Positions 5,299 to 64,000 of a DNA stretch of 64,000 nt are shown in pieces. The position numbers were made by a program, and so were the translations under genes. The stretch lies in the NCBI GenBank assembly GCA_964016885.1, contig OZ024743.1, forward strand, positions 321,284,001 through 321,348,000. The letters are read 5' to 3'. A model generated the notes under the pieces. It was given only the letters and a program-made list of their open reading frames with translations, was not told where the DNA came from and made no database searches. The DNA is from Eledone cirrhosa. Lineage: Eukaryota. The stretch's first letter is position 1. Each line of letters begins with the position of its first letter.

Positions 5299-5457
5299 AA
5301 TATTACTGTTAATGCTTTCAATAGAAATCTAATGTTAATTTAACATTTTTCGCTTCACAATTAAAATTAAAATATATTCCAAATAACCAATAAGAATTAA
5401 CATTTTGTGTTATTTCTGGTTAAAATAACAAGTGATTCTGATCATGTCTTTTAACAG

Positions 5458-9905: not shown

Positions 9906-10042
9906 AATATTTTATGTTCGCAAATTCTGAAAATGGCAGAACTAGTGATAAGACACATCTCATATTTAGAAATGTTTTACCTCCTGCAGGACATAGTTTC
10001 TACTTTTCTTATTTTATTCATGAAAATGGTGGTAAACTGCAG
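9906..10042 (+). CDS. Exon (phase 1-0): middle of the MAM domain
   Basis: Long polypyrimidine tract plus ttcag acceptor, and a CAG|gtatag donor. Reads YFMFANSENGRTSDKTHL...FYFSYFIHENGGKLQ, matching the MAM YMY...A.L...F.Y...G.L pattern. Confidence 0.85.
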
Positions 10043-12102: not shown

Positions 12103-12120
12103 TTTTTTTTTTTTTTTTTT

Positions 12121-16543: not shown

Positions 16544-16586
16544 ATTGAGATAAGGAAAGTAGAGATATGTATGTTTATTTGTGTGC

Positions 16587-16648
<62 letters not shown>

Positions 16649-21167: not shown

Positions 21168-21882
21168 AAACAGCAATGTTACTTTGGTAGTGAGACCTGG
21201 GCGCTGTGTGTAGAAAACTTATGTAGATTAGAAAGAAACGTAGCTTGCATCCTCCAATGGATGTGTAATGGTAATATACACGAACGGCAAAGCATAAACA
21301 AATTGAAAGAGAGACTAAGCATAAGAGAAATCAAATGCTGTGTGCAGGAGAGGAGGTTGCATTGATATGAACATGTTATGTGTATGAAGTATGACAGCTG
21401 CATAAAAAGGTGCAGAGCACTAAAAGTCAATGAAAACATTGGAGTTGGGGAGACCCAAGAAAATCTGGGATGAGATAATAAAACTGACCTTGATAATTGA
21501 ACCTCTCAAAAGCGATGAGACAGGACCGAGACCTCTGGCATTATGCAGTAATACAGGAAATCCAACACCCACGGGTACAAGCTGAAGAATATAGACAGTA
21601 TGCCCCCAACACCTATCCCACTGTAAATTGGTCGTGCAGGTGTCACAACAAAAATCACCCAGTCCACACTGTAAAGTGGTTGTGTAGGTACCACGGTAAA
21701 AAAGCACCTAGTACTCACTGTAAATGAGGTTGGTGTTAGGAAGGGCATCTAGCTGTAGAAATCAAGCCAAAATCAGTTCCGTATGAGCAAGACATGGCCA
21801 CCTGACCTGGCATTGCCAACAATAGGACAACGTGTCTAACCAATGGAAGAATGGATGTAAAACGTTGATGATGATGATGATA
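21168..21882 (+). mobile_element. 5'-truncated RTE-clade LINE, decayed 3' end with tail
   Basis: Reads GSETWALCVENLCRLERN...CCVQERRLH*YEHV...GRPKKIWDEII, then tail motif ggttggtgttaggaagggcatc and (GAT)n. Confidence 0.75.
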
Positions 21883-22769: not shown

Positions 22770-22965
22770 CTTCACACTGAAAATGTGAATGGAAAAACAC
22801 TTCTTTTTGACGAAATTGGAATCTCGAGTAGAAGATGGAACACTGTTTGTTTCAATGTAACAGCAAACATGAACACTAGCTTCATATTTACTGCCACAAA
22901 AGGTTATGAATATAACAAACATATTGCTCTGATGGATGTTGGTTTCAAAGAAGGAAATTGTGAAG
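22770..22965 (+). CDS. Exon (phase 0-1): C-terminal part of the MAM domain
   Basis: tattttcag acceptor and AAG|gtgaga donor. The 196 nt read LHTENV...RRWNTVCF...FIFTATKG...HIALMDVGFKEGNCE, matching the MAM W...FE..G...IA.DD....G.C pattern. Joins the exon ending at 10042 in frame. Confidence 0.85.
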
Positions 22966-23020
22966 GTGAGATAGCTTACACCTCTCTTTTTCTCATTCTC
23001 TCACTACCTCTCCTGCTTTG

Positions 23021-23073
<53 letters not shown>

Positions 23074-23559
23074 GACTATGAACACATTATCATACAGTGG
23101 TTTATCTTATTTCTTGTATTTTTTATACACATCACTGCTCCCTTGACGTGCCTGTTCCAACTATATCACCTAGGCAGTCATCCTCATCCTCATCAACATC
23201 CTCATCATCATTTAATGTCTAGTCAGGGTTGGACAGATCTTCAAAGATTGAGTCAGTACCTAAGTGGGGACACTGACCTCCAAGACAGGCCTAGAATTCG
23301 CATCATGCTTGCATATGGCTCCATGTTCTATCAAGTGCATTTATCGTGGAACCAACATTAGAAAATGACCTCTTTGATTCTTAAGTTGCACACATTACTT
23401 TCCGTCACCTCTATGGTGACCTCAATGTTTGGGCTGCACCATCTGTCAAGTTGATTTTTAACAGAAGAAGCTCTTGTCATTATGTGCTCCTTGTCCTGTG
23501 TATGCTAGATCTACATGGTATTTATGATGTACGAGGAGCTACAATTTTTACATTTTGTC

Positions 23560-26500
23560 ATAATACAGCAGTCTAGTCCTAGTATCAGCTCTGTGACAGA
23601 GATGACACAGGACTGAGCTGATGGGGTGATATGTTATAATACAGAAGTCCAGTCCACTAGTACCAGCTCTGTGACAGAGATGACACAGGACTGAGCTGAC
23701 TGGTGATATGTTATAATACAGAAGTCCAGTCCACTAGTACCAGCTCTGTGACAGAGATGACACAGGACTGAGCTGACTGGTGATATGTTATAATACAGAA
23801 GTCCAGTACATTAGTACCAGCTCTGTGACAGAGATGACACAGGACTGAGCAGACTGGTGATATGTCACAATACAGAAGTCCAGTCCACTAGTACCAGCTC
23901 TGTGACAGAGATGACACAGGACTGAGCTGACTGGTGATATGTCACAATACAGAAGTCCAGTCCACTAGTACCAGCTCTGTGACGGAGATGACACAGGACT
24001 GAGCTGACTGGTGATATGTCACAATACAGAAGCCCAGTCCACTAGTACCAGCTCTGTGACAGAGATGACACAGGACTGAGCTGACTGGTCATATGTTATA
24101 ATACAGAAGTCCAGTCCACTAGTACCAGCTCTGTGAAAGAGATGACACAGGACTGAGCTGACTGGTCATATGTTATAATACAGAAGCCCAGTCCACTAGT
24201 ACCAGCTCTGTGACAGAGATGACACAGGACTGAGCTGACTGGTGATATGTCACAATACAGAAGTCCAGTACACTAGTACCAGCTCTGTGACAGAGATGAC
24301 ACAGAACTGAGTTGACTGGTGATATGTCACAATACAGAAGTCCAGTCCACTAGTACCAGCTCTGTGACAGAAATGACAAAGGACTGAGCTGACTGGTGAT
24401 ATGTGACAATACAGAAGTCCAGTACACTAGTACCAGCTCTGTGACAGAGATGACACAGGACTGAGCTGACGGGTGGTATGTCACAATACAGAAGTCCAGT
24501 CCACTAGTACCAGCTCTGTGACAGAGATGACACAGGACTGAGCTGACTGGTCATATGTTATAATACAGAAGTCCAGTCCACTAGTACCAGCTCTGTGACA
24601 GAGATGACACAGGACTGAGCTGACTGGTCATATGTTATAATACAGAAGTCCAGTCCACTAGTACCAGCTCTGTGACAGAGATGACACAGGACTGAGCTGA
24701 CTGGTGATATGTTATAATACAGAAGTCCAGTCCACTAGTACCAGCTCTGTAAAAGAGATGACACAGAACTGAGCTGACTGGTGATATGTCACAATACAGA
24801 AGTCCAGTCCACTAGTACCAGCTCTGTGACAGAGATGACACAGGACTGAGCTGACTGGTGATATGTTATAATACAGAAGTCCAGTCCACTAGTACCAGCT
24901 CTGTGACAGAGATGACACAGGACTGAGCTGACTGGTGATATGTTATAATACAGAAGTCCAGTCCACTAGTACCAGCTCTGTGTCATAATATATGACACAG
25001 GACTGAGATGAGTAGTGATATGTTATAATACAGAAGCCCAGTCCACTAGTACCAGCTCTGTGACAGAGATGACACAGGACTGAGCTGACTGGTGATATGT
25101 CACAATACAGAAGTCCAGTCCACTAGTACCAGCTCTGTGACAGAGATGACACAGGACTGAGCTGATTGGTCTTATGTTATAATACAGAAGTCCAGTCCAC
25201 TAGTACCAGCTCTGAGACAGAGATGACACAGGACTGAGCTGACTGGTGATATCTTATAATACAGAAGCCCAGGCAATTAGTACCAGCTCTGTGACATAAT
25301 ATATGACACAGGACTGTGATGAGTAGTGATATGTTATAATACAGAAGTCCAGTACACTAGTACCAGCTCTGTGACAGAGATGACACAGGACTGAGCTGAC
25401 TGGTGATATGTCACAATACAGAAGTCCAGTCCACTAGTACCAGCTCTGTGACAGAGATGACACGGGACTGAGCTGACTGGTCATATGTTATAATACAGAA
25501 GCCCAGTCCACTAGTACCAGCTCTGTGACAGAGATGACACAGGACTGAGCTGACTGGTGATATGTCACAATACAGAAGTCCAGTCCACTAGTACCAGCTC
25601 TGTGACAGAGATGACACAGGACTGATCTGACTGGTGATATGTCACAATACAGAAGTCCAGTCCACTAGTACCAGCTCTGTGACAGAGATGACACAGGACT
25701 GAGCTGACTGGTAATATGTCACAATACAGAAGCCCAGTCCACTAGTACCAGTTCTGTGACAGAGATGACACAGGACTGAGCTGACTGGTCATATGTTATA
25801 ATACAGAAGTCCAGTCCACTAGTACCAGCTCTGTGACAGAGATGACACAGGACTGAGCTGACTGGTGATATGTCACAATACAGAAGTCCAGTCCACTAGT
25901 ACCAGCTCTGTGACAGAGATGACACAGGACTGAGCTGACTGGTCACATGTTATAATACAGAAGCCCAGTCCACTAGTACCAGCTCTGTGACAGAGATGAC
26001 ACAGGACTGAGCTGACTGGTGATATGTCACAATACAGAAGTCCAGTCCACTAGTACCAGCTCTGTGACAGAGATGACACAGGACTGATCTGACTGGTGAT
26101 ATGTCACAATACAGAAGTCCAGTCCACTAGTACCAGCTCTGTGACAGAGATGACACAGGACTGAGCTGACTGGTGATATGTCACAATACAGAAGCCCAGT
26201 CCACTAGTACCAGTTCTGTGACAGAGATGACACAGGACTGAGCTGACTGGTCATATGTTATAATACAGAAGTCCAGTCCACTAGTACCAGCTCTGTGACA
26301 GAGATGACACAGGACTGAGCTGACTGGTGATATGTCACAATACAGAAGTCCAGTACACTAGTACCAGCTCTGTGACCGAAATGACAAAGGAGTGAGCTGA
26401 CTGGTGATATGTCACAATACAGAAGTCCAGTACACTAGTACCAGCTCTGTGACAGAGATGACACAGGACTGAGCTGACGGGTGATATGTCACAATACAGA

Positions 26501-29500
26501 AGTCCAGTCCACTAGTACCAGCTCTGTGACAGAGATGACACAGGACTGAGCTGACTGGTCATATGTTATAATACAGAAGTCCAGTCCACTAGTACCAGCT
26601 CTGTGACAGAGATGACACAGGACTGAGCTGACTGGTGATATGTTATAATACAGAAGTCCAGTCCACTAGTACCAGCTCTGTAACAGAGATGACACAGGAC
26701 TGAGCTGACTGGTGATATGTTATAATACAGAAGTCCAGTCCACTAGTACCAGCTCTGTGACAGAGATGACACAGGACTGAGCTGACTGGTGATATGTTAT
26801 AATACAGAAGTCCAGTCCACTAGTACCAGATCTGTGTCATAATATATGACACAGGACTGAGATGAGTAGTGATATGTTATAATACAGAAGCCCAGTCCAC
26901 TAGTACCAGCTCTGTGACAGAGATGACACAGGACTGAGCTGACTGGTGATATGTCACAATACAGAAGTCCAGTCCACTAGTACCAGCTCTATGACAGAGA
27001 TGACACAGGACTGAGCTGACTGGTCTTATGTTATAATACAGAAGTCCAGTCCACTAGTACCAGCTCTGTGACAGAGATGACACAGGACTGAGCTGACTGG
27101 TGATATGTTATAATACAGAAGCCCAGGCAATTAGTACCAGCTCTGTGACATAATATATGACACAGGACTGAGATGAGTAGTGATATGTTATAATACAGAA
27201 GTCCAGTCCACTAGTACCAGCTCTGTGACAGAGATGACACAGGACTGAGCTGACTGGTGATATGTTATAATACAGAAGTCCAGTCCACTAGTACCAGCTC
27301 TGTGTCATAATATATGACACAGGACTGAGATGAGTAGTGATATGTTATAATACAGAAGCCCAGTCCACTAGTACCAGCTCTGTGACAGAGATGACACAGG
27401 ACTGAGCTGACTGGTGATATGTCACAATACAGAAGTCCAGTCCACTAGTACCAGCTCTGTGACAGAGATGACACAGGACTGATCTGACTGGTGATATGTC
27501 ACAATACAGAAGTCCAGTCCACTAGTACCAGCTCTGTGACAGAGATGACACAGGACTGAGCTGACTGGTGATATGTCACAATACAGAAGCCCAGTCCACT
27601 AGTACCAGTTCTGTGACAGAGATGACACAGGACTGAGCTGACTGGTGATATGTCACAATACAGAAGTCCAGTCCACTAGTACCAGCTCTGTGACAGAGAT
27701 GACACAGGACTGAGCTGACTGGTGATATGTCACAATACAGAAGTCCAGTCCACTAGTACCAGCTCTGTGACAGAGATGACACAGGACTGAGCTGACTGGT
27801 GATATGTCACAATACAGAAGTCCAGTACACTAGTACCAGCTCTGTGACAGAAATGACAAAGGACTGAGCTGACTGGTGATATGCCACAATACAGAAGTCC
27901 AGTCCACTAGTACCAGCTCTGTGACAGAGATGACACAGGACTGAGCTGACTGGTAATATGTCACAATACAGAAGCCCAGTCCACTAGTACCAGTTCTGTG
28001 ACAGAGATGACACAGGACTGAGCTGACTGGTCATATGTTATAATACAGAAGTCCAGTCCACTAGTACCAGCTCTGTGACAGAGATGACACAGGACTGAGC
28101 TGACTGGTGATATGTCACAATACAGAAGTCCAGTCCACTAGTACCAGCTCTGTGACAGAGATGACACAGGACTGAGCTGACTGGTCACATGTTATAATAC
28201 AGAAGCCCAGTCCACTAGTACCAGCTCTGTGACAGAGATGACACAGGACTGAGCTGACTGGTGATATGTCACAATACAGAAGTCCAGTCCACTAGTACCA
28301 GCTCTGTGACAGAGATGACACAGGACTGATCTGACTGGTGATATGTCACAATACAGAAGTCCAGTCCACTAGTACCAGCTCTGTGACAGAGATGACACAG
28401 GACTGAGCTGACTGGTGATATGTCACAATACAGAAGCCCAGTCCACTAGTACCAGTTCTGTGACAGAGATGACACAGGACTGAGCTGACTGGTCATATGT
28501 TATAATACAGAAGTCCAGTCCACTAGTACCAGCTCTGTGACAGAGATGACACAGGACTGAGCTGACTGGTGATATGTCACAATACAGAAGTCCAGTACAC
28601 TAGTACCAGCTCTGTGACCGAAATGACAAAGGAGTGAGCTGACTGGTGATATGTCACAATACAGAAGTCCAGTACACTAGTACCAGCTCTGTGACAGAGA
28701 TGACACAGGACTGAGCTGACGGGTGATATGTCACAATACAGAAGTCCAGTCCACTAGTACCAGCTCTGTGACAGAGATGACACAGGACTGAGCTGACTGG
28801 TCATATGTTATAATACAGAAGTCCAGTCCACTAGTACCAGCTCTGTGACAGAGATGACACAGGACTGAGCTGACTGGTGATATGTTATAATACAGAAGTC
28901 CAGTCCACTAGTACCAGCTCTGTAACAGAGATGACACAGGACTGAGCTGACTGGTGATATGTTATAATACAGAAGTCCAGTCCACTAGTACCAGCTCTGT
29001 GACAGAGATGACACAGGACTGAGCTGACTGGTGATATGTTATAATACAGAAGTCCAGTCCACTAGTACCAGATCTGTGTCATAATATATGACACAGGACT
29101 GAGATGAGTAGTGATATGTTATAATACAGAAGCCCAGTCCACTAGTACCAGCTCTGTGACAGAGATGACACAGGACTGAGCTGACTGGTGATATGTCACA
29201 ATACAGAAGTCCAGTCCACTAGTACCAGCTCTATGACAGAGATGACACAGGACTGAGCTGACTGGTCTTATGTTATAATACAGAAGTCCAGTCCACTAGT
29301 ACCAGCTCTGTGACAGAGATGACACAGGACTGAGCTGACTGGTGATATGTTATAATACAGAAGCCCAGGCAATTAGTACCAGCTCTGTGACATAATATAT
29401 GACACATGACTGAGATGAGTAGTGATATGTTATAATACAGAAGTCCAGTCCACTAGTACCAGCTCTGTGACAGAGATGACACAGGACTGAGCTGACTGGT

Positions 29501-32500
29501 GATATGTTATAATACAGAAGTCCAGTCCACTAGTACCAGCTCTGTGTCATAATATATGACACAGGACTGAGATGAGTAGTGATATGTTATAATACAGAAG
29601 CCCAGTCCACTAGTACCAGCTCTGTGACAGAGATGACACAGGACTGAGCTGACTGGTGATATGTCACAATACAGAAGTCCAGTCCACTAGTACCAGCTCT
29701 GTGACAGAGATGACACAGGACTGATCTGACTGGTGATATGTCACAATACAGAAGTCCAGTCCACTAGTACCAGCTCTGTGACAGAGATGACACAGGACTG
29801 AGCTGACTGGTGATATGTCACAATACAGAAGCCCAGTCCACTAGTACCAGTTCTGTGACAGAGATGACACAGGACTGAGCTGACTGGTGATATGTCACAA
29901 TACAGAAGTCCAGTCCACTAGTACCAGCTCTGTGACAGAGATGACACAGGACTGAGCTGACTGGTGATATGTCACAATACAGAAGTCCAGTCCACTAGTA
30001 CCAGCTCTGTGACAGAGATGACACAGGACTGAGCTGACTGGTGATATGTCACAATACAGAAGTCCAGTACACTAGTACCAGCTCTGTGACAGAAATGACA
30101 AAGGACTGAGCTGACTGGTGATATGCCACAATACAGAAGTCCAGTACACTAGTACCAGCTATGTGACAGAGATGACACAGGACTGAGCTGACGGGTGATA
30201 TGTCACAATACAGAAGTCCAGTCCACTAGTACCAGCTCTGTGACAGAGATGACACAGGACTGAGTTGACTGGTTATATGTTATAATACAGAAGTCCAGTC
30301 CACTAGTACCAGCTCTGTGACAGAGATGACACAGGACTGAGCTGACTGGTCATATGTTATAATACAGAAGTCCAGTCCACTAGTACCAGCTCTGTAACAG
30401 AGATGACACAGGACTGAGCTGACTGGTGATATGTTATAATACAGAAGTCCAGTCCACTAGTACCAGCTCTGTGACAGAGATGACACAGGACTGAGCTGAC
30501 TGGTGATATGTTATAATACAGAAGTCCAGTCCACTAGTACCAGATCTGTGTCATAATATATGACACAGGACTGAGATGAGTAGTGATATGTTATAATACA
30601 GAAGCCCAGTCCACTAGTACCAGCTCTGTGACAGAGATGACACAGGACTGACCTGACTGGTGATATGTCACAATACAGAAGTCCAGTCCACTAGTACCAG
30701 CTCTATGACAGAGATGACACAGGACTGAGCTGACTGGTCTTATGTTATAATACAGAAGTCCAGTCCACTAGTACCAGCTCTGTGACAGAGATGACACAGG
30801 ACTGAGCTGACTGGTGATATGTTATAATACAGAAGCCCAGGCAATTAGTACCAGCTCTGTGACATAATATATGACACAGGACTGAGATGAGTAGTGATAT
30901 GTTATAATACAGAAGTCCAGTCCACTAGTACCAGCTCTGTGACAGAGATGACACAGGACTGAGCTGACTGGTGATATGTCACAATACAGAAGTCCAGTCC
31001 ACTAGTACCAGCTCTGTGACAGAGATGACACAGGACTGAGCTGACTGGTGATATGTTATAATACAGAAGTCCAGTCCACTAGTACCAGCTCTGTAACAGA
31101 GATGACACAGGACTGAGCTGACTGGTGATATGTTATAATACAGAAGTCCAGTCCACTAGTACCAGCTCTGTGACAGAGATGACACAGGACTGAGCTGACT
31201 GGTGATATGTTATAATACAGAAGTCCAGTCCACTAGTACCAGATCTGTGTCATAATATATGACACAGGACTGAGATGAGTAGTGATATGTTATAATACAG
31301 AATTCCAGTACACTAGTACCAGCTCTGTGACAGAGATGACACAGGACTGAGCTGACTGGTGATATGTCACAATACCGAAGTCCAGTCCACTAGTACCAGC
31401 TCTGTGACAGAGATGACACAGGACTGAGCTGACTGGTCATATGTTATAATACAGAAGCCCAGTCCACTAGTACCAGCTCTATGACAGACATGACACAGGA
31501 CTGAGCTGACTGGTCTTATGTTATAATACAGAAGTCCAGTCCACTAGTACCAGCTCTGTGACAGAGATGACACAGGACTGAGCTGACTGGTGATATGTTA
31601 TAATACAGAAGCCCAGGCAATTAGTACCAGCTCTGTGACATAATATATGACACAGGGCTGAGAGGAGTAGTGATATGTTATAATACAGAATTCCAGTACA
31701 CTAGTACCAGCTCTGTGACAGAGATGACACAGGACTGAGCTGACTGGTGATATGTCACAATACCGAAGTCCAGTCCACTAGTACCAGCTCTGTGACAGAG
31801 ATGACACAGGACTGAGCTGACTGGTCATATGTTATAATACAGAAGCCCAGTCCACTAGTACCAGCTCTGTGACAGAGATGACACAGGACTGAGCTGACTG
31901 GTGATATGTCACAATACAGAAGTCCAGTCCACTGGTACCAGCTCTGTGACAGAGATGACACAGGACTGAGCTGACTGGTGATATGTCACAATACAGAAGT
32001 CCAGTCCACTAGTACCAGCTCTGTGACAGAGATCACACAGAACTGAGCTGACTGGTGATATGTCACAATACAGAAGCCCAGTCCACTAGTACCAGCTCTG
32101 TGACAGAGATGACACAGGACTGAGCTGACTGGTCATATGTTATAATACAGAAGTCCAGTCCACTGGTACCAGCTCTGTGACAGAGATGACACAGGACTGA
32201 GCTGACTGGTGATATGTCACAATACAGAAGTCCAGTCAACTAGTACCAGCTCTGTGACAGAGATGACACAGAACTGAGCTGACTGGTCATATGTTATAAT
32301 ACAGAAGTCCAGTCCACTAGTACCAGCTCTGTAACAGAGATGACACAGGACTGAGCTGACTGGTGATATGTCACAATACAGAAGTCCAGTACACTAGTAC
32401 CAGCTCTGTGACAGAGATGACACAGGACTGAGCTGACGGGTGATATGTCACAATACAGAAGTCCAGTCCACTAGTACCAGCTCTGTGACAGAGATGACAC

Positions 32501-35500
32501 AGGACTGAGCTGACTGGTCATATGTTATAATACAGAAGTCCAGTCCACTAGTACCAGCTCTGTGACAGAGATGACACAGGACTGAGCTGACTGGTGATAT
32601 GTTATAATACAGAAGTCCAGTCCACTAGTACCAGCTCTGTAACAGAGATGACACAGGACTGAGCTGACTGGTGATATGTTATAATACAGAAGTCCAGTCC
32701 ACTAGTACCAGCTCTGTGACAGAGATGACACAGGACTGAGCTGACTGGTGATATGTTATAATACAGAAGTCCAGTCCACTAGTACCAGATCTGTGTCATA
32801 ATATATGACACAGGACTGAGATGAGTAGTGATATGTTATAATACAGAAGCCCAGTCCACTAGTACCAGCTCTGTGACAGAGATGACACAGGACTGAGCTG
32901 ACTGGTGATATGTCACAATACAGAAGTCCAGTCCACTAGTACCAGCTCTATGACAGAGATGACACAGGACTGAGCTGACTGGTCTTATGTTATAATACAG
33001 AAGTCCAGTCCACTAGTACCAGCTCTGTGACAGAGATGACACAGGACTGAGCTGACTGGTGATATGTTATAATACAGAAGCCCAGGCAATTACTACCAGC
33101 TCTGTGACATAATATATGACACAGGACTGAGATGAGTAGTGATATGTTATAATACAGAAGTCCAGTCCACTAGTACCAGCTCTGTGACAGAGATGACACA
33201 GGACTGAGCTGACTGGTGATATGTTATAATACAGAAGTCCAGTCCACTAGTACCAGCTCTGTGTCATAATATATGACACAGGACTGAGATGAGTAGTGAT
33301 ATGTTATAATACAGAAGCCCAGTCCACTAGTACCAGCTCTGTGACAGAGATGACACAGGACTGAGCTGACTGGTGATATGTCACAATACAGAAGTCCAGT
33401 CCACTAGTACCAGCTCTGTGACAGAGATGACACAGGACTGATCTGACTGGTGATATGTCACAATACAGAAGTCCAGTCCACTAGTACCAGCTCTGTGACA
33501 GAGATGACACAGGACTGAGCTGACTGGTGATATGTCACAATACAGAAGCCCAGTCCACTAGTACCAGTTCTGTGACAGAGATGACACAGGACTGAGCTGA
33601 CTGGTCATATGTTATAATACAGAAGTCCAGTCCACTAGTACCAGCTCTGTGACAGAGATGACACAGGACTGAGCTGACTGGTGATATGTCACAATACAGA
33701 AGTCCAGTCCACTAGTACCAGCTCTGTGACAGAGATGACACAGGACTGAGCTGACTGGTGATATGTCACAATACAGAAGTCCAGTCCACTAGTACCAGCT
33801 CTGTGACAGAGATGACACAGGACTGAGCTGACTGGTGATATGTCACAATACAGAAGTCCAGTCCACTAGTACCAGCTCTGTGACAGAGATGACACAGGAC
33901 TGAGCTGACTGGTGATATGTCACAATACAGAAGTCCAGTACACTAGTACCAGCTCTGTGACAGAAATGACAAAGGACTGAGCTGACTGGTGATATGCCAC
34001 AATACAGAAGTCCAGTACACTAGTACCAGCTCTGTGACAGAGATGACACAGGACTGAGCTGACGGGTGATATGTCACAATACAGAAGTCCAGTCCACTAG
34101 TACCAGCTCTGTGACAGAGATGACACAGGACTGAGTTGACTGGTTATATGTTATAATACAGAAGTCCAGTCCACTAGTACCAGCTCTGTGACAGAGATGA
34201 CACAGGACTGAGCTGACTGGTCATATGTTATAATACAGAAGTCCAGTCCACTAGTAACAGCTCTGTGACAGATATGACACAGGACTGAGCTGACTGGTGA
34301 TATGTTATAATACAGAAGTCCAGTCCACTAGTACCAGCTCTGTGACAGAGATGACACAGGACTGAGCTGACTGGTGATATGTTATAATACAGAAGTCCAG
34401 TCCACTAGTACCAGATCTGTGTCATAATATATGACACAGGACTGAGATGAGTAGTGATATGTTATAATACAGAAGCCCAGTCCACTAGTACCAGCTCTGT
34501 GACAGAGATGACACAGGACTGAGCTGACTGGTGATATGTCACAATACAGAAGTCCAGTCCACTAGTACCAGCTCTATGACAGACATGACACAGGACTGAG
34601 CTGACTGGTCTTATCTTATAATACAGAAGTCCAGTCCACTAGTACCAGCTCTGTGACAGAGATGACACAGGACTGAGCTGACTGGTGATATGTTATAATA
34701 CAGAAGCCCAGGCAATTAGTACCAGCTCTGTGACATAATATATGACACAGGGCTGAGAGGAGTAGTGATATGTTATAATACAGAATTCCAGTACACTAGT
34801 ACCAGCTCTGTGACAGAGATGACACAGGACTGAGCTGACTGGTGATATGTCACAATACAGAAGTCCAGTCCACTAGTACCAGCTCTGTGACAGAGATGAC
34901 ACAGGACTGAGCTGACTGGTCATATGTTATAATACAGAAGCCCAGTCCACTAGTACCAGCTCTGTGACAGAGATGACACAGGACTGAGCTGACTGGTGAT
35001 ATGTCACAATACAGAAGTCCAGTCCACTGGTACCAGCTCTGTGACAGAGATGACACAGGACTGAGCTGACTGGTGATATGTCACAATACAGAAGTCCAGT
35101 CCACTAGTACCAGCTCTGTGACAGAGATCACACAGAACTGAGCTGACTGGTGATATGTCACAATACAGAAGCCCAGTCCACTAGTACCAGCTCTGTGACA
35201 GAGATGACACAGGACTGAGCTGACTGGTCATATGTTATAATACAGAAGTCCAGTCCACTGGTACCAGCTCTGTGACAGAGATGACACAGGACTGAGCTGA
35301 CTGGGGATATGTCACAATACAGAAGTCCAGTCAACTAGTACCAGCTCTGTGACAGAGATGACACAGAACTGAGCTGACTGGTCATATGTTATAATACAGA
35401 AGTCCAGTCCACTAGTACCAGCTCTGTAACAGAGATGACACAGGACTGAGCTGACTGGTGATATGTCACAATACAGAGGTCCAGTCCACTAGTACCAGCT

Positions 35501-53500: not shown

Positions 53501-56500
53501 ACTGAGCTGACTGGTGATATGTTATAATACAGAAGTCCAGTCCACTAGTTCCAGCTCTGTGACAGAGATGACACAGGACTGAGCTGACTGGTGATATGTT
53601 ATAATACAGAAGTCCAGTCCACTAGTACCAGATCTGTGTCATAATATATGACACAGGACTGAGATGAGTAGTGATATGTTATAATACAGAAGCCCAGTCC
53701 ACTAGTACCAGCTCTGTGACAGAGATGACACAGGACTGAGCTGACTGGTGATATGTCACAATACAGAAGTCCAGTCCACTAGTACCAGCTCTATGACAGA
53801 GATGACACAGGACTGAGCTGACTGGTCTTATGTTATAATACAGAAGTCCAGTCCACTAGTACCAGCTCTGTGACAGAGATGACACAGGACTGAGCTGACT
53901 GGTGATATGTTATAATACAGAAGCCCAGTCCACTAGTACCAGCTCTGTGACAGAGATGACACAGGACTGAGCTGACTGGTGATATGTCACAATACAGAAG
54001 TCCAGTCCACTAGTACCAGATCTGTGTCATAATATATGACACAGGACTGAGATGAGTAGTGATATGTTATAATACAGAAGCCCAGTCCACTAGTACCAGC
54101 TCTGTGACAGAGATGACACAGGACTGAGCTGACTGGTGATATGTCACAATACAGAAGTCCAGTCCACTAGTACCAGCTCTATGACAGAGATGACACAGGA
54201 CTGAGCTGACTGGTCTTATGTTATAATACAGAAGTCCAGTCCACTAGTACCAGCTCTGTGACAGAGATGACACAGGACTGAGCTGACTGGTGATATGTTA
54301 TAATACAGAAGCCCAGTCCACTAGTACCAGCTCTGTGACAGAGATGACACCGGACTGAGCTGACTGGTGATATTTCACAATACAGAAGTCCAGTCCACTA
54401 GTACCAGCTCTGTGACAGAGATGACACAGGACTGATCTGACTGGTGATATGTCACAATACAGAAGTCCAGTCCACTAGTACCAGCTCTGTGACAGAGATG
54501 ACACAGGACTGAGCTGACTGGTGATATGTCACAATACAGAAGCCCAGTCCACTAGTACCAGTTCTGTGACAGAGATGACACAGGACTGAGCTGACTGGTC
54601 ATATGTCACAATACAGAAGTCCAGTCCACTAGTACCAGCTCTGTGACAGAGATGACACAGGACTGAGCTGACTGGTGATATGTCACAATACAGAAGTCCA
54701 GTCCACTAGTACCAGCTCTGTGACAGAGATGACCCAGGACTGAGCTGACTGGTGATATGTCACAATACAGAAGTCCAGTCCACTAGTACCAGCTCTGTGA
54801 CAGAGATGACACAGGACTGAGCTGACTGGTGATATGTCACAATACAGAAGTCCAGTCCACTAGTACCAGCTCTGTGACAGAGATGACACAGGACTGAGCT
54901 GACTGGTGATATGTCCCAATACAGAAGTCCAGTACACTAGTACCAGCTCTGTGACAGAAATGACAAAGGACTGAGCTGACTGGTGATATGTCACAATACA
55001 GAAGTCCAGTACACTAGTACCAGCTCTGTGACAGAGATGACACAGGACTGAGCTGACGGGTGATATGTCACAATACAGAAGTCCAGTCCACTAGTACCAG
55101 CTCTGTGACAGAGATGACACAGGACTGAGCTGACTGGTTATATGTTATAATACAGAAGTCCAGTCCACTAGTACCAGCTCTGTGACAGAGATGACACAGG
55201 ACTGAGCTGACTGGTCATATGTTATAATACAGAAGTCCAGTCCACTAGTACCAGCTCTGTGACAGAGATGACACAGGACTGAGCTGACTGGTGATATGTT
55301 ATAATACAGAAGTCCCGTCCACTAGTACCAGCTCTGTAACAGAGATGACACAGGACTGAGCTGACTGGTGATATGTTATAATACAGAAGTCCAGTCCACT
55401 AGTACCAGCTCTGTGACAGAGATGACACAGGACTGAGCTGACTGGTGATATGTCACAATACAGAAGTCCAGTCCACTAGTACCAGCTCTATGACAGAGAT
55501 GACACAGGACTGAGCTGACTGGTCTTATGTTATAATACAGAAGTCCAGTCCACTAGTACCAGCTCTGTGACAGAGATGACACAGGACTGAGCTGACTGGT
55601 GATATGTTATAATACAGAAGCCCAGGCAATTAGTACCAGCTCTGTGACATAATATATGACACAGGACTGAGATGAGTAGTGATATGTTATAATACAGAAT
55701 TTCCAGTACACTAGTACCAGCTCTGTGACAGAGATGACACAGGACTGAGCTGATTGGTCTTATGTTATAATACAGAAGTCCAGTCCACTAGTACCAGCTC
55801 TGAGACAGAGATGACACAGGACTGAGCTGACTGGTGATATGTTATAATACAGAAGCCCACGCAATTAGTACCAGCTCTGTGACATAATATATGACACAGG
55901 ACTGAGATGAGTAGTGATATGTTATAATACAGAAGTCCAGTACACTAGTACCAGCTCTGTGACAGAGATGACACAGGACTGAGCTGACTGGTGATATGTC
56001 ACAATACAGAAGTCCAGTCCACTAGTACCAGCTCTGTGACAGAGATGACACGGGACTGAGCTGACTGGTCATATGTTATAATACAGAAGCCCAGTCCACT
56101 AGTACCAGCTCTGTGACAGAGATGACACAGGACTGAGCTGACTGGTGATATGTCACAATACAGAAGTCCAGTCCACTAGTACCAGCTCTGTGACAGAGAT
56201 GACACAGGACTGATCTGACTGGTGATATGTCACAATACAGAAGTCCAGTCCACTAGTACCAGCTCTGTGACAGAGATGACACAGGACTGAGCTGACTGGT
56301 GATATGTTATAATACAGAAGCCCACGCAATTAGTACCAGCTCTGTGACATAATATATGACACAGGACTGAGATGAGTAGTGATATGTTATAATACAGAAG
56401 TCCAGTACACTAGTACCAGCTCTGTGACAGAGATGACACAGGACTGAGCTGACTGGTGATATGTCACAATACAGAAGTCCAGTCCACTAGTACCAGCTCT

Positions 56501-59500
56501 GTGACAGAGATGACACGGGACTGAGCTGACTGGTCATATGTTATAATACAGAAGCCCAGTCCACTAGTACCAGCTCTGTGACAGAGATGACACAGGACTG
56601 AGCTGACTGGTGATATGTCACAATACAGAAGTCCAGTCCACTAGTACCAGATCTGTGTCATAATATATGACACAGGACTGAGATGAGTAGTGATATGTTA
56701 TAATACAGAAGCCCAGTCCACTAGTACCAGCTCTGTGACAGAGATGACACAGGACTGAGCTGACTGGTGATATGTCACAATACAGAAGTCCAGTCCACTA
56801 GTACCAGCTCTATGACAGAGATGACACAGGACTGAGCTGACTGGTCTTATGTTATAATACAGAAGTCCAGTCCACTAGTACCAGCTCTGTGACAGAGATG
56901 ACACAGGACTGAGCTGACTGGTGATATGTTATAATACAGAAGCCCAGTCCACTAGTACCAGCTCTGTGACAGAGATGACACAGGACTGAGCTGACTGGTG
57001 ATATGTCACAATACAGAAGTCCAGTCCACTAGTACCAGGTCTGTGACAGAGATGACACAGGACTGATCTGACTGGTGATATGTCACAATACAGAAGTCCA
57101 GTCCACTAGTACCAGCTCTGTGACAGAGATGACACAGGACTGAGCTGACTGGTGATATGTCACAATACAGAAGCCCAGTCCACTAGTACCAGTTCTGTGA
57201 CAGAGATGACACAGGACTGAGCTGACTGGTCATATGTCACAATACAGAAGTCCAGTCCACTAGTACCAGCTCTGTGACAGAGATGACACAGGACTGAGCT
57301 GACTGGTGATATGTCACAATACAGAAGTCCAGTCCACTAGTACCAGCTCTGTGACAGAGATGACACAGGACTGAGCTGACTGGTGATATGTCACAATACA
57401 GAAGTCCAGTCCACTAGTACCAGCTCTGTGACAGAGATGACACAGGACTGAGCTGACTGGTGATATGTCACAATACAGAAGTCCAGTCCACTAGTACCAG
57501 CTCTGTGACAGAGATGACACAGGACTGAGCTGACTGGTGATATGTCACAATACAGAAGTCCAGTACACTAGTACCAGCTCTGTGACAGAAATGACAAAGG
57601 ACTGAGCTGACTGGTGATATGTCACAATACAGAAGTCCAGTACACTAGTACCAGCTCTGTGACAGAGATGACACAGGACTGAGCTGACGGGTGATATGTC
57701 ACAATACAGAAGTCCAGTCCACTAGTACCAGCTCTGTGACAGAGATGACACAGGACTGAGCTGACTGGTTATATGTTATAATACAGAAGTCCAGTCCACT
57801 AGTACCAGCTCTGTGACAGAGATGACACAGGACTGAGCTGACTGGTCATATGTTATAATACAGAAGTCCAGTCCACTAGTACCAGCTCTGTGACAGAGAT
57901 GACACAGGACTGAGCTGACTGGTGATATGTTATAATACAGAAGTCCAGTCCACTAGTACCAGCTCTGTAACAGAGATGACACAGGACTGAGCTGACTGGT
58001 GATATGTTATAATACAGAAGTCCAGTCCACTAGTACCAGCTCTGTGACAGAGATGACACAGGACTGAGCTGACTGGTGATATGTCACAATACAGAAGTCC
58101 AGTCCACTAGTACCAGCTCTATGACAGAGATGACACAGGACTGAGCTGACTGGTCTTATGTTATAATACAGAAGTCCAGTCCACTAGTACCAGCTCTGTG
58201 ACAGAGATGACACAGGACTGAGCTGACTGGTGATATGTTATAATACAGAAGCCCAGGCAATTAGTACCAGCTCTGTGACATAATATATGACACAGGACTG
58301 AGATGAGTAGTGATATGTTATAATACAGAATTTCCAGTACACTAGTACCAGCTCTGTGACAGAGATGACACAGGACTGAGCTGATTGGTCTTATGTTATA
58401 ATACAGAAGTCCAGTCCACTAGTACCAGCTCTGAGACAGAAATGACACAGGACTGAGCTGACTGGTGATATGTTATAATACAGAAGCCCACGCAATTAGT
58501 ACCAGCTCTGTGACATAATATATGACACAGGACTGAGATGAGTAGTGATATGTTATAATACAGAAGTCCAGTACACTAGTACCAGCTCTGTGACAGAGAT
58601 GACACAGGACTGAGCTGACTGGTGATATGTCACAATACAGAAGTCCAGTCCACTAGTACCAGCTCTGTGACAGAGATGACATGGGACTGAGCTGACTGGT
58701 CATATGTTATAATACAGAAGCCCAGTCCACTAGTACCAGCTCTGTGACAGAGATGACACAGGACTGAGCTGACTGGTGATATGTCACAATACAGAAGTCC
58801 AGTCCACTAGTACCAGCTCTGTGACAGAGATGACACAGGACTGATCTGACTGGTGATATGTCACAATACAGAAGTCCAGTCCACTAGTACCAGCTCTGTG
58901 ACAGAGATGACACAGGACTGAGCTGACTGGTGATATGTCACAATACAGAAGCCCAGTCCACTAGTACCAGTTCTGTGACAGAGATGACACAGGACTGAGC
59001 TGACTGGTCATATGTTATAATACAGAAGTCCAGTCCACTAGTACCAGCTCTGTGACAGAGATGACACAGGACTGAGCTGACTGGTGATATGTCACAATAC
59101 AGAAGTCCAGTCCACTAGTACCAGCTCTGTGACAGAGATGACACAGGACTGAGCTGACTGGTCATATGTTATAATACAGAAGCCCAGTCCACTAGTACCA
59201 GCTCTGTGACAGAGATGACACAGGACTGAGCTGACTGGTGATATGTTATAATACAGAAGTCCAGTCCACTAGTACCAGCTCTGTGACAGAGATGACACAG
59301 GACTGAGCTGACTGGAGATATGTCACAATACAGAAGTCCAGTCCACTAGTACCAGCTCTGTGACAGAGATGACACAGGACTGAGCTGACTGGTCATATGT
59401 TATAATACAGAAGTCCAGTCCACTAGTACCAGCTCTGTGACAGAGATGACACAGGACTGATCTGACTGGTGATATGTTATAATACAGAAGCCCAGTCCAC

Positions 59501-62500
59501 TAGTACCAGCTCTGTGACAGAGATGACACAGGACTGAGCAGACTGGTGATATGTTATAATACAGAAGTCCAGTCCACTAGTACCAGCTCTGTGACAGAGA
59601 TGACACAGGACTGAGCTGACTGGTGATATGTCACAATACAGAAGTCCAGTCCACTAGTACCAGCTCTGTGTCATAATATATGACACAGGACTGAGATGAG
59701 TTGTGATATGTTATAATACAGAAGCCCAGTCCACTAGTACCAGCTCTGTAACAGAGATGAGACAGGACTGAGCTGACTGGTGATATGTCACAATACAGAA
59801 GTCCAGTACACTAGTACCAGCTCTGTGACAGAGATGACACAGGACTGAGCTGACTGGTGATATGTTATAATACAGAAGTCCAGTACACTAGTACCAGCTC
59901 TGTGACAGAGATGACACAGGACTGAGCTGACTGGTCATATGTTATAATACAGAAGTCCAGTACACTAGTACCAGCTCTGTGACAGAGATGACACAGGACT
60001 GAGCTGACTGGTGATATGTTATAATACAGAAGTCCAGTCCACTAGTACCAGCTCTGTGACAGAGATGACACAGGACTGAGCTGACTGGTGATATGTCACA
60101 ATACAGGAGTCCAGTCCACTAGTACCAGCTCTGTGACAGAGATGACACAGGACTGAGCTGACTGGTCATATGTTATAATACAGAAGCCCAGTCCACTAGT
60201 ACCAGCTCTGTGACAGAGATGACACAGGACTGAGCTGACTGGTGATATGTCACAATACAGAAGTCCAGTCCACTAGTACCAGCTCTGTGACAGAGATGAC
60301 ACAGGACTGATCTGACTGGTGATATGTCACAATACAGAAGTCCAGTCCACTAGTACCAGCTCTGTGACAGAGATGACACAGGACTGAGCTAACTGGTGAT
60401 ATGTCACAATACAGAAGTCCAGTACACTAGTACCAGCTCTGTGACAGAAATGACAAAGGACTGAGCTGACTGGTGATATGTCACAATACAGAAGTCCAGT
60501 ACACTAGTACCAGCTCTGTGACAGAGATGACACAGGACTGAGCTGACGGTTGATATGTCACAATATAGAAGTCCAGTCCACTAGTACCAGCTCTGTGACA
60601 GAGATGACACAGGACTGAGCTGACTGGTTATATGTTATAATACAGAAGCCCAGGCAATTAGTACCAGCTCTGTGACATAATATATGACACAGGACTGAGA
60701 TGAGTAGTGATATGTTATAATACAGAAGTCCAGTACACTAGTACCAGCTCTGTGACAGAGATGACACAGGACTGAGCTGACTGGTGATATGTCACAATAC
60801 AGAAGTCCAGTCCACTAGTACCAGCTCTGTGACAGAGATGACACGGGACTGAGCTGACTGGTCATATGTTATAATACAGAAGCCCAGTCCACTAGTACCA
60901 GCTCTGTGACAGAGATGACACAGGACTGAGCTGACTGGTGATATGTCACAATACAGAAGTCCAGTCCACTAGTACCAGCTCTGTGACAGAGATGACACAG
61001 GACTGATCTGACTGGTGATATGTCACAATACAGAAGTCCAGTCCACTAGTACCAGCTCTGTGACAGAGATGACACAGGACTGAGCTGACTGGTGATATGT
61101 CACAATACAGAAGCCCAGTCCACTAGTACCAGTTCTGTGACAGAGATGACACAGGACTGAGCTGACTGGTCATATGTTATAATACAGAAGTCCAGTCCAC
61201 TAGTACCAGCTCTGTGACAGAGATGACACAGGACTGAGCTGACTGGTGATATGTCACAATACAGAAGTCCAGTCCACTAGTACCAGTTCTGTGACAGAGA
61301 TGAGACAGGACTGAGCTGACTGGTCATATGTTATAATACAGAAGTCCAGTCCACTAGTACCAGCTCTGTGACAGAGATGACACAGGACTGAGCTGACTGG
61401 TGATATGTCACAATACAGAAGTCCAGTACACTAGTACCAGCTCTGTGACAGAGATGACACAGGACTGAGCTGACTGGTGATATGTCACAATACAGAAGCC
61501 CAGTCCACTAGTACCAGTTCTGTGACAGAGATGACACAGGACTGAGCTGACTGGTCATATGTTATAATACAGAAGTCCAGTCCACTAGTACCAGCTCTGT
61601 GACAGAGATGACACAGGACTGAGCTGACTGGTGATATGTCACAATACAGAAGTCCAGTCCACTAGTACCAGCTCTGTGACAGAGATGACACAGGACTGAG
61701 CTGACTGGTCATATGTTATAATACAGAAGCCCAGTCCACTAGTACCAGCTCTGTGACAGAGATGACACAGGACTGAGCTGACTGGTGATATGTTATAATA
61801 CAGAAGTCCAGTCCACTAGTACCAGCTCTGTGACAGAGATGACACAGGACTGAGCTGACTGGTGATATGTTATAATACAGAAGCCCAGTCCACTAGTACC
61901 AGCTCTGTGACAGAGATGACACAGGACTGAGCTGACTGGAGATATGTCACAATACAGAAGTCCAGTCCACTAGTACCAGCTCTGTGACAGAGATGACACA
62001 GGACTGAGCTGACTGGTGATATGTTATAATACAGAAGTCCAGTCCACTAGTACCAGCTCTGTGACAGAGATGACACAGGACTGAGCTGACTGGTGATATG
62101 TTATAATACAGAAGTCCAGTCCACTAGTACCAGCTCTGTGACAGAGATGACACAGGACTGAGCTGACTGGAGATATGTCACAATACAGAAGTCCAGTCCA
62201 CTAGTACCAGCTCTGTGACAGAGATGACACAGGACTGAGATGAGTAGTGATATGTTATAATACAGAAGCCCAGTCCACTAGTACCAGCTCTGTGACAGAG
62301 ATGACACAGGACTGAGCTGACTGGTCATATGTTATAATACAGAAGCCCAGTCCACTAGTACCAGCTCTGTAACAGAGATGACACAGGACTGAGCTGACTG
62401 GTGATATGTTATAATACAGAAGTCCAGTACACTAGTACCAGCTCTGTGACAGAGATGACACAGGACTGACCTGACTGGTGATATGTCACAATACAGAAGT

Positions 62501-64000
62501 CCAGTCCACTAGTACCAGCTCTGTGACAGAGATGACACAGGACTGAGCTGACTGGTGATATGTCACAATACAGAAGTCCAGTACACTAGTACCAGCTCTG
62601 TGACAGAGATGACACAGGACTGAGCTGACTGGTGATATGTCACAATACAGAAGTCCAGTCCACTAGTACCAGCTCTGTGACAGAGATGACACAGGACTGA
62701 TCTGACTGGTGATATGTCACAATACAGAAGTCCAGTCCACTAGTACCAGCTCTGTGACAGAGATGACACAGGACTGAGCTGACTGGTGATATGTTATAAT
62801 ACAGAAGTCCAGTCCACTAGTACCAGATCTGTGACAGAGATGACACAGGACTGAGCTGACTGGTCATGTGTTATAATACAGAAGTCCAGTCCACTAGTAC
62901 CAGCTCTGTGACAGAGATGACACAGGACTGAGCTGACTGGTGATATGTTATAATACAGAAGTCCAGTCCACTAGTACCAGCTCTGTGACAGAGATGACAC
63001 AGGACTGAGCTGACTGGTGATATGTCACAATACAGAAGTCCAGTCCACTAGTACCAGCTCTGTGACAGAGATGACACAGGACTGAGCTGACTGGTCTTAT
63101 GTTATAATACAGAAGTCCAGTCCACTAGTACCAGCTCTGTGACAGAGATGACACAGGACTGAGCTGACTGGTGATATGTCACAATACAGAAGTCCAGTCC
63201 ACTAGTACCAGCTCTGTGACAGAGATGACACAGGACTGAGCTGACTGGTCTTATGTTATAATACAGAAGTCCAGTCCACTAGTACCAGCTCTGTGACAGA
63301 GATGACACAGGACTGAGCTGACTGGTGATATGTTATAATACAGAAGCCCAGTCCACTAGTACCAGCTCTGTGACAGAGATGACACAGGACTGAGCTGACT
63401 GGTGATATGTCACAATACAGAAGTCCAGTCCACTAGTACCAGCTCTGTGACAGAGATGACACAGGACTGATCTGACTGGTGATATGTCACAATACAGAAG
63501 TCCAGTCCACTAGTACCAGCTCTGTGACAGAGATGAAACAGCACTGAGCTGACTGGTGATATGTCACAATACAGAAGCCCAGTCCACTAGTACCAGTTCT
63601 GTGACAGAGATGACACAGGTCTGAGCTGACTGGTCATATGTTATAATACAGAAGTCCAGTCCACTAGTACCAGCTCTGTGACAGAGATGACACAGGACTG
63701 AGCTGACTGGTGATATGTCACAATACAGAAGTCCAGTCCACTAGTACCAGCTCTGTGACAGAGATGACACAGGACTGAGCTGACTGGTGATATGTCACAA
63801 TACAGAAGTCCAGTCCACTAGTACCAGCTCTGTGACAGAGATGACACAGGACTGAGCTGACTGGTGATATGTCATAATACAGAAGTCCAGTCCACTAGTA
63901 CCAGCTCTGTGACAGAGATGACACAGGACTGAGCTGACTGGTGATATGTCACAATACAGAAGTCCAGTACACTAGTACCAGCTCTGTGACAGAAATGACA
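23560..64000. repeat. 77-bp satellite array, >40 kb, about 525 monomers, continuing past the window end
   Basis: Consensus AGAAGTCCAGTCCACTAGTACCAGCTCTGTGACAGAGATGACACAGGACTGAGCTGACTGGTGATATGT(CAC/TAT)AATAC; period 77 (23641 to 23718). All monomers seen are head-to-tail. Confidence 0.98.

What the first reader, a model, noticed from the sequence alone, without database searches (positions are those of the whole stretch)
22966..64000. >40-kb satellite array apparently inside an intron of a protein-coding gene
Seen: the last exon ends in an open frame at a phase-1 donor (AAG|gtgaga). The satellite begins ~600 bp later, and no convincing terminal exon lies between them. Inference: the gene must be transcribed through at least 40 kb of tandem repeat, a satellite-filled giant intron reminiscent of Drosophila Y-loop fertility genes. 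This would yield abundant structured intronic RNA and could tie expression to array length or chromatin state.
Basis: partly seen in the sequence, partly recalled or inferred. Interest (0 to 1): 0.75.

Follow-up and report, generated by a model that had tools for sequence, protein, structure and literature searches.

The report
LINE-born repeat swells protease-gene intron
A 57,000-base run of a 77-base repeat fills one intron of an intact protease-like gene in what is likely an octopus; the same spot holds only 6-8 repeats in three sister copies of the gene, two of which have inflated a different intron instead, so this is likely tolerated local overgrowth of a jumping-gene remnant rather than a control device.

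Summary
Confirmed, but ordinary for this genome. The array has 735 units of 77 bp (56.8 kb, no gap) and ends 16 kb beyond the window. It fills 97% of intron 15 (58,688 nt) of a 35-exon, stop-free gene for a predicted secreted SRCR-MAM-LDLa-trypsin protein. The next exon lies about 1.2-1.3 kb after the array, in frame. The unit is the last ~25 codons of a LINE ORF2. Three close paralogs carry 6-8 units here, still joined to the LINE body. Two of them have their own >50-kb array in another intron; the third has none over 4 kb. This copy has two more arrays (50 and 12 kb), borders a satellite block of at least 337 kb if continuous, and has lost the catalytic His. About 1 in 8 sampled 4-kb stretches of the genome is long array. 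Y-loop features fail: the intron is not megabase-sized, not simple-repeat and not size-conserved. Splicing across the array is not shown: the one spliced contig seen is paralog-type. Earlier notes of this scan report many such introns elsewhere in this genome. Closest known: avian intron 'stuttering' and the human CACNA1C VNTR.

The parts
2656..3000 (+). Exon 12 of 35 (second part of a MAM domain), phase 1-1
4859..5305 (.). 34-bp minisatellite (13 units) in intron 12; the homologous array is 56.8 kb (1,695 units) in paralog P1
5458..5613 (+). Exon 13 (MAM start), phase 1-1
9906..10042 (+). Exon 14 (MAM middle), phase 1-0
   Evidence: its 3' end matches the upstream loose end of the X4 contig
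21424..21800 (+). Decayed LINE tail in intron 14. It holds a single-copy homolog of the 77-bp unit (21514-21583) followed by a 48-bp tandem (21619-21732) homologous to the intron-26 array unit
   Evidence: alignment scores 46 and 78 against shuffle maxima 33 and 37
22770..22965 (+). Exon 15 (MAM end), phase 0-1, last exon before the array
22966..23555 (+). 5' spacer of intron 15. Shared with the paralogs, no polyA signal. About 1 kb of LINE ORF2 body that precedes the units in paralogs P2 and P3 is missing at 23555/23556
23556..64000 (+). 77-bp tandem array (with 80-bp variants), all units in one orientation. It continues to window-equivalent ~80,400 (56.8 kb, 735 units); intron 15 ends at window-equivalent 81,653

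Best explanation
The array is a 77-bp piece of a LINE retrotransposon's coding end that stands in 6-8 copies in this intron of three sister genes and in 735 copies here; it likely grew in place, recently and without a function, by repeated duplication of multi-unit blocks, and would be transcribed through and spliced out if this copy is expressed. Steps: (1) A LINE inserted in sense into intron 15 of the ancestral gene and its ORF2 end was duplicated a few times. Shown: the LINE body runs into unit 1 in all three paralogs. Inferred: the order of events. (2) The gene duplicated into four close copies. Shown: dS 0.05-0.06 from this copy to the other three. (3) This copy lacks about 1 kb of the LINE body and has about 100-fold more units. 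Shown. (4) Growth went by block duplications of 2-8 kb. Shown as repeat lags; unequal exchange or template switching as the cause is inferred. (5) Other resident minisatellites did the same in other introns and in other copies, so which intron swells looks like chance. The pattern is shown; neutrality is inferred. (6) The array is compatible with read-through, having no polyA hexamer, strong donor or pyrimidine tract on the sense strand. Shown. Read-through itself is untested.
For: Full model: 35 exons, 5,889 nt, no internal stop, all introns GT-AG. Same architecture as Argonauta GAB1606841. Intron 15 is 58,688 nt against 6,663, 3,790 and 3,318 nt, with 735 against 8, 6 and 7 units. Copy-specific giants: the intron-7 38-mer is 50.2 kb here against 2.0, 1.0 and 0.55 kb; the intron-12 34-mer is 56.8 kb in P1 against 0.45-0.57 kb; the intron-26 48-mer is 52.4 kb in P3 against 12.1, 13.0 and 3.9 kb; the intron-4 46-mer is 22.4 kb in P3 against 2.6 kb in P2. 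LINE origin: tblastx of the P2 intron to a LINE (Pfam Exo_endo_phos and RVT_1) reads through into unit 1, E 1.6e-29. The unit is single-copy at the ORF2 end in 9 of 9 non-paralog loci fetched (of 47 matches). Recent growth: 45 singleton changes in 673 units (0.09%), 56% of the array in repeated exact 400-mers, lags 2.2-8.0 kb, against 2.4-7.8% intron divergence to the paralogs. Common in the genome: 3 of 32 4-kb samples are wholly array and a fourth is 87% array; a 30-bp array covers two samples 30 kb apart inside an unrelated MAM gene on C1. Size is plausible: word depth in X1 and X3 gives 300-389 copies against 454 expected from the assembly.
Against: No read or contig shows this copy spliced across the array: the one spliced contig (X4, inferred RNA) has the paralog-type start of exon 16. 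The intact frame reflects the whole time since duplication, while the array is far younger, so it cannot prove present read-through. This copy differs from its sisters in ways neutrality does not predict: three large arrays, a position 16 Mb away beside a satellite block, a lost catalytic His and a faster-evolving protease domain (41 of 180 against 150 of 1,473 residues changed). The genome sample is small (32) and was placed by hand at round coordinates. X1 and X3 may be the assembly's own sample.
Confidence: 0.72

Rival explanations
1. This copy is now silent or strongly damped. It lies at the edge of a satellite (likely heterochromatic) domain, and its arrays grew because it is little transcribed, or they damped it. 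It would be a very young pseudogene or a low-dose copy, and nothing need be transcribed through the array.
For: The 29-bp array starts 7 kb after the stop and is found in every sample to 321.80 Mb, followed by 27- and 49-bp arrays at 322.0 and 322.3 Mb. His57 motif TAAHC reads TSGYC here but is kept in P1, P2 and the distant paralog. dN/dS to the paralogs is 0.88-1.03. The spliced X4 contig is paralog-type and carries one P2-only letter (22828), and P2 is the copy with no array over 4 kb.
Against: 0 of 94 Cys changed against 240 of 1,960 residues overall (p 6e-6). No stop or frameshift, where 150-190 neutral changes would give 6-8 stops (P of none at most 0.0025). dN/dS among the paralogs is also at least 1 (1.35-1.65), so about 1 does not mark decay here. 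The X4 contig lacks another P2-only letter (22921) and is probably a mosaic path. P1 and P3 carry >50-kb intronic arrays and keep open frames over the exons read.
Confidence: 0.17
2. Y-loop-like device: the long repeat intron is used as a transcription timer or an RNA scaffold and is kept by selection.
For: The gene is intact and 98% intron (307,100-nt span, 5,889 nt coding). A long intronic VNTR allele can be associated with lower expression (CACNA1C TRACT, PMC13131567 abstract).
Against: The intron is not megabase-sized; in flies, genes with 50-100-kb introns behaved like ordinary genes under splicing knockdown (PMC11207136 passages). Intron size is not conserved among four close copies, and different introns swell in each. 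The RNA folds little better than shuffles. Arrays like this are common in the genome.
Confidence: 0.05
3. Assembly artefact: a misjoin at ~23.5 kb, or an array inflated or collapsed by the assembler.
For: No long reads were laid. Four giant intronic arrays in these copies all measure 50-57 kb, which is an odd coincidence. Depth gives 0.66-0.86 of the assembled copy number.
Against: No N in the region. Both flanks are collinear with three paralogs, including the same degenerate last units. DNA contigs match this copy's own flanks with 0 differences over 68, 386, 230 and 112 nt. The longest exact repeat in the array is about 2 kb, shorter than usual long reads (recalled). Depth excludes a short array and a much larger collapsed one.
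Confidence: 0.05

Closest known systems
Avian intron 'sequence stuttering' on dot chromosomes (Hron et al. 2026, PMC12954441; abstract, outline and 12 passages read)
   Same: Strictly local tandem expansion of a resident sequence inside introns, with different clusters in homologous introns, recent and large length change.
   Different: Here the arrays are tens of kb (the paper's worked example is 1.6-2.9 kb), the DNA is AT-rich, the seed is a LINE coding end rather than exon sequence, and variation is seen between paralogs; between individuals it is untested.
Human CACNA1C TRACT intronic VNTR (PMC13131567; abstract and outline read)
   Same: One intronic array of a short non-simple unit reaching tens of kb in an intact gene, grown through perfect repeat tracts.
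   Different: 30-bp unit, 3-30+ kb, with measured association of long alleles with lower expression. Here 77 bp, 57 kb, LINE-derived, no expression data.
Drosophila Y-loop genes kl-3 and kl-5, intron gigantism (PMC6508621 abstract and outline; PMC11207136 passages)
   Same: A repeat-filled intron in a protein-coding gene that would have to be transcribed through.
   Different: Those introns are megabases of simple satellite, with conserved intron size and dedicated RNA-binding proteins in spermatocytes. This one is 58.7 kb, has a complex unit and is 3-7 kb in sister copies.
Satellites born from retrotransposon segments (general class; recalled, and named in earlier scan notes; no paper on an RTE ORF2-derived unit seen in the listing)
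   Same: The unit is homologous to a retroelement segment, and the junction with the parent element is preserved in the paralogs.
   Different: The unit comes from the last coding codons, not from a UTR tandem, and is single-copy in 9 of 9 other LINE copies checked. The giant array stays at one locus.
Argonauta hians GAB1606841.1, 'MAM and LDL-receptor class A domain-containing protein 2-like' (P0002)
   Same: About 1,990 aa, same order of SRCR-like, MAM, LDLa and trypsin domains (Pfam: 7 MAM stretches, 5 LDLa, Trypsin).
   Different: It keeps the TAAHC His motif, which this copy has lost. Function is unknown for both; the search listed no paper on this family.

Membership tests
Y-loop-type intron gigantism | Megabase-scale introns | tested here: not met
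   58,688 nt; gene span 307 kb
Y-loop-type intron gigantism | Simple-sequence satellite filling | tested here: not met
   77-bp unit derived from a LINE ORF2
Y-loop-type intron gigantism | Intron size conserved while sequence turns over | tested here: not met
   3.3-6.7 kb in three paralogs at dS 0.05-0.06
Y-loop-type intron gigantism | Satellite intron is transcribed | tested here: inconclusive
   Only contigs were available; the spliced one is paralog-type
Y-loop-type intron gigantism | Germline-specific programme with dedicated RNA-binding proteins | not testable with these tools
   No tissue data
Intron sequence stuttering (PMC12954441) | Repetitive intron from strictly local expansion | tested here: met
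   Among scored hits, 99% matches occur only in this array, paralog seeds 86-96%, other loci 70-90% and short (lower bounds)
Intron sequence stuttering (PMC12954441) | Extensive length variation among individuals | not testable with these tools
   Only between-paralog variation seen
Intron sequence stuttering (PMC12954441) | Occasional exon fragments in the unit; GC-rich dot-chromosome setting | tested here: not met
   The unit is LINE-derived; flanks are 29-47% GC per kb and the array 46%
Retrotransposon-derived satellite | Unit homologous to a segment of a retroelement | tested here: met
Retrotransposon-derived satellite | Array contiguous with the parent element | tested here: met
   In 3 of 3 paralogs; the LINE body is missing in this copy
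Retrotransposon-derived satellite | Parent belongs to the RTE clade | not tested
   Endonuclease and RT shown by Pfam; the clade label is recalled from the C-terminal motif, no tree built
Active S1 (trypsin-like) serine protease | Catalytic His (TAAHC motif) | tested here: not met
   TSGYC in this copy; TAAHC in P1, P2 and the distant paralog
Active S1 (trypsin-like) serine protease | Catalytic Asp and Ser (GDSGGP) | tested here: met
   Asp kept at the position of the paralogs' DIA motif, GDSGGP intact; Pfam Trypsin on 3 of 3 exons scanned
Active S1 (trypsin-like) serine protease | Arg/Lys before the IVGG-type activation site | tested here: not met
   N-IQGG in this copy, P1 and P2

The most novel reading that the evidence does not exclude
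Intronic array load acts as a dosage dial among young gene duplicates. The copy that moved next to a satellite domain piled up 119 kb of intronic arrays, was damped, and was thereby freed to lose its catalytic His and become a non-catalytic decoy, while the array-free copy P2 carries most of the expression. The four copies would be a natural experiment linking repeat growth to the fate of duplicates.
Probability: 0.1. Interest if true: 0.6.

Novelty: new member of a known kind. Interest (0 to 1): 0.3.

Why it matters
As a single array it is one of many in this genome. Its value is as a clean case: the seed, its LINE parent and the unexpanded state are all preserved in three sister genes, and different introns have swollen in different copies. 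Copy-specific RNA reads could therefore test directly whether a 50-60-kb intronic array costs expression, and whether repeat growth follows or precedes the relaxation of a duplicate. It also shows coding ends of LINEs, not only UTR tandems, seeding large arrays.

Tried and rejected
Terminal exon or polyA site in 22966-23555: none. Host gene as a GRL101-like receptor (my first guess from LDLa repeats): rejected, since no LRR or 7TM exons were found and trypsin exons follow. Word-index homolog search with exon 12 among longer proteins: none of 28 candidates passed; the HMMER search gave 7 hits, of which P0005 and P0007 are unrelated by Pfam. Sequencing runs: no RNA holder listed; X4 is RNA only by inference from its exon-joined contig. 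Laying X4 on the post-array exons at 96% likeness showed no piece with this copy's own exon-16 start or exon-17 5' part; one low piece in bin L031:8662-8747 (depth about 10) cannot be assigned. Contigs drop rare variants, so this blank is no evidence on expression. RAD-seq run X8 covered almost nothing here. Positive selection on the MAM exons, suggested by three exons, did not hold over exons 6-28 (dN/dS 0.88-1.65, p at least 0.098; only P1-P2 on exons 6-17 reached p 0.016, one of 20 tests). A 50-57-kb ceiling on intronic arrays: dropped, because unchecked earlier notes report 68-421 kb in this genome. Self-megablast of the array returned no rows at the filter used. Whether the dispersed short 77-bp arrays on C1, C5 and elsewhere are each joined to a LINE body was not tested, as their loci were not returned. 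Literature searches for octopus intronic satellites or minisatellites and for this protease family listed nothing on point; only open-licence papers are searched. PMC7754599 (one passage) was not useful. No supplements were read.
Full report
Observation. The window is G000:C4:321,284,001-321,348,000 of a 3.0-Gb assembly. The organism is inferred to be an octopod from the best full-length homolog, an Argonauta hians protein. Exon 22770-22965 is open and ends at a phase-1 GT donor. The 77-bp array starts at 23556. Fetching onward, it ends near C4:321,364,400: 56,800 bp, 735 units, no N. The spacer before it has no polyA hexamer.

Host gene. Comparison with a distant paralog at 370.4-370.6 Mb and with P0002 gave 35 exons from 321,149,870 to 321,456,969: 5,889 nt, 1,962 aa, no internal stop, all introns GT-AG. 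Exon 1 is inferred from a hydrophobic leader. The protein has a signal-like start, an SRCR-like domain, eight MAM-type repeats interleaved with LDLa repeats, a further SRCR-like domain and a trypsin domain. The array lies in intron 15 (58,688 nt). Exon 16 follows about 1.2-1.3 kb after it, in frame. Pfam did not score exons 16 and 17 as MAM; they align to the MAM region of P0002.

Paralogs. Three close copies lie at 304.8-305.5 Mb of the same contig. P2 was read whole and is intact. P1 (exons 6-34 found) and P3 (exons 5-28 translated; exons 1-4 located) are open over what was read; a 200-N gap lies upstream of P1 exon 6. Their intron 15 is 6,663, 3,790 and 3,318 nt with 8, 6 and 7 units. The copies share a set of short intronic minisatellites, and different ones have run away in different copies. 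The 38-mer of intron 7 is 50.2 kb here and 0.55-2.0 kb elsewhere. The 34-mer of intron 12 is 56.8 kb in P1 and about 0.5 kb elsewhere. The 48-mer of intron 26 is 52.4 kb in P3, 12-13 kb here and in P1, and 3.9 kb in P2. The 46-mer of intron 4 is 22.4 kb in P3 and 2.6 kb in P2, and was not found here. P2 has no array over 4 kb.

Origin of the unit. In the paralogs a decayed LINE ORF2 reads straight into unit 1 (tblastx E 1.6e-29 against a LINE with Pfam endonuclease and RT domains). In 9 of 9 other loci fetched from a 47-match search, the unit is single-copy at the ORF2 end. One such tail lies in the window at 21514-21583, followed by the 48-bp tandem that matches the intron-26 unit. The 38-, 34- and 29-mers do not match that tail. 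In this copy about 1 kb of LINE body is missing at the array's 5' edge relative to P2 and P3. Related short arrays at 70-90% identity occur on other contigs (lower bounds). The RTE label is recalled, not tested.

Growth. Of 732 units cut, 673 are 77 bp and 55 are 80 bp. Mean pairwise difference is 4.4%, but singleton changes are only 0.09%. 56% of the array lies in repeated exact 400-mers, with lags of 2.2-8.0 kb among the commonest, and the longest exact repeat is about 2 kb. Intron divergence to the paralogs is 2.4-7.8%. So the burst is much younger than the duplication and went by block duplication. The molecular route (unequal exchange, conversion or template switching) is inferred from general knowledge.

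Is the size real? A 41-nt unit contig has word depth 2,927 (X1) and 3,527 (X3). Divided by per-copy depth this gives 300-389 copies against 454 in the assembly. Contigs with no difference match both flanks. X1 and X3 are one sample and may be the assembly's own, so this checks collapse, not independence.

Expression. X4 (kind not on record) has a 753-nt contig covering exactly exon 15, with exon 14 before it and exon 16 behind it, which confirms these splice sites for the gene family. The exon-16 part is the paralog type, so splicing of this copy across the array is not shown. The coding sequence has been under structural constraint: 0 of 94 Cys changed against 240 of 1,960 residues, and no stop where neutral change predicts 6-8. 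But that covers the whole time since duplication, not only the short time since the burst. The protease domain is accelerated (41 of 180 against 150 of 1,473, p 5e-6; P1-P2 12 of 180 against 80 of 1,473, p 0.49) and has lost its His, while P1, P2 and the distant paralog keep it. The protein is likely a non-catalytic protease homolog. The array has no AATAAA, ATTAAA, GTAAG or 10-nt pyrimidine run on the sense strand, and only 3 GTGAG. This is compatible with read-through but is expected for a 77-mer by chance. Folding is unremarkable.

How common? Of 32 hand-spaced 4-kb samples, 3 are wholly array, a fourth is 87% array, and 19% of bases are in tandem repeats of period 10 or more. In 20 samples across an unrelated MAM gene on C1, one is wholly and one partly the same 30-bp array, 30 kb apart; the stretch between was not read. 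Downstream of this gene a 29-bp array is present in all samples from 321.46 to 321.80 Mb, then other arrays at 322.0 and 322.3 Mb. Earlier unchecked notes of this scan describe many satellite-filled introns in this genome, several larger.

Comparison. It works like avian intron stuttering (PMC12954441; abstract and passages) and like the CACNA1C VNTR (PMC13131567; abstract), and it is a retrotransposon-derived satellite by test. It is not a Y-loop-type intron: size, unit type and size conservation all fail, and in flies 50-100-kb introns behaved as ordinary ones (PMC11207136, passages). Searches for a description in octopods listed nothing on point.

Verdict. Most likely neutral local overgrowth (0.72). 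Rivals: recent silencing or damping of this copy (0.17), a regulatory device (0.05), an artefact (0.05). New member of a known kind; interest 0.3, mainly for the four-copy comparison.

Noticed in passing
G000:C4:321,192,829-321,243,016 and 321,413,072-321,425,190: Two more large arrays in the same gene: a 38-mer x1,335 (50.2 kb, intron 7) and a 48-mer x252 (12.1 kb, intron 26). The 48-mer matches the tandem in a LINE tail.
   Followed up: yes
G000:C4:304,817,384 (P1 intron 12), 305,143,827 (P3 intron 26), 305,291,462 (P3 intron 4): Paralog-specific giant arrays of 56.8, 52.4 and 22.4 kb. Four giants in this family all measure 50-57 kb, which is unexplained.
   Followed up: partly
G000:C4:321,464,302 to at least 321,802,000: A 29-bp array begins 7 kb after the stop codon and is present in every sample over 337 kb, followed by 27- and 49-bp arrays at 322.0 and 322.3 Mb: likely a megabase-scale satellite domain.
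   Followed up: partly
L038:9194-9362 (exon 32, C4:321,437,194-362): Three adjacent residues of the catalytic His motif are changed in this copy only, and its protease domain evolves faster than the rest.
   Followed up: yes
paralog cluster C4:304.75-305.50 Mb; 305,938,083; 370.35-370.63 Mb: Three near-identical copies (P2 and P3 head to head) with dN/dS 1.35-1.65 among them, an isolated MAM exon at 305.94 Mb that may belong to P1's missing 5' part or to another copy, and a distant paralog at about 50% identity.
   Followed up: partly
L020:445-1920 (P2 intron 15): A 36-bp array (41 units in P2, 25 in P3) sits where this copy has about one unit, a small-scale version of the same process in the same intron.
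   Followed up: partly
window 11826-15045: A near full-length LINE on the + strand in intron 14, with endonuclease- and RT-like frames broken by a few stops or shifts (read; not scanned with Pfam).
   Followed up: no
window 18423-19109: An exact two-copy tandem duplication of 352 bp (100% matches).
   Followed up: no
window 16560-18330: An imperfect inverted arrangement of (TG)n-rich blocks around a fragment at 17179-17819 that looks like a GIY-YIG or Penelope-type ORF (by eye).
   Followed up: no
G000:C1:363.47-364.08 Mb: A very large multi-MAM gene (about 80 Pfam MAM matches) with a 30-bp array in samples at 363.572 and 363.600 Mb.
   Followed up: partly
G000:C4:324,902,234-324,906,105: A related array of at least 3.8 kb with hits spaced at multiples of 40 bp and 72-78% identity to the 77-mer, possibly an independent birth from a similar LINE end.
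   Followed up: no
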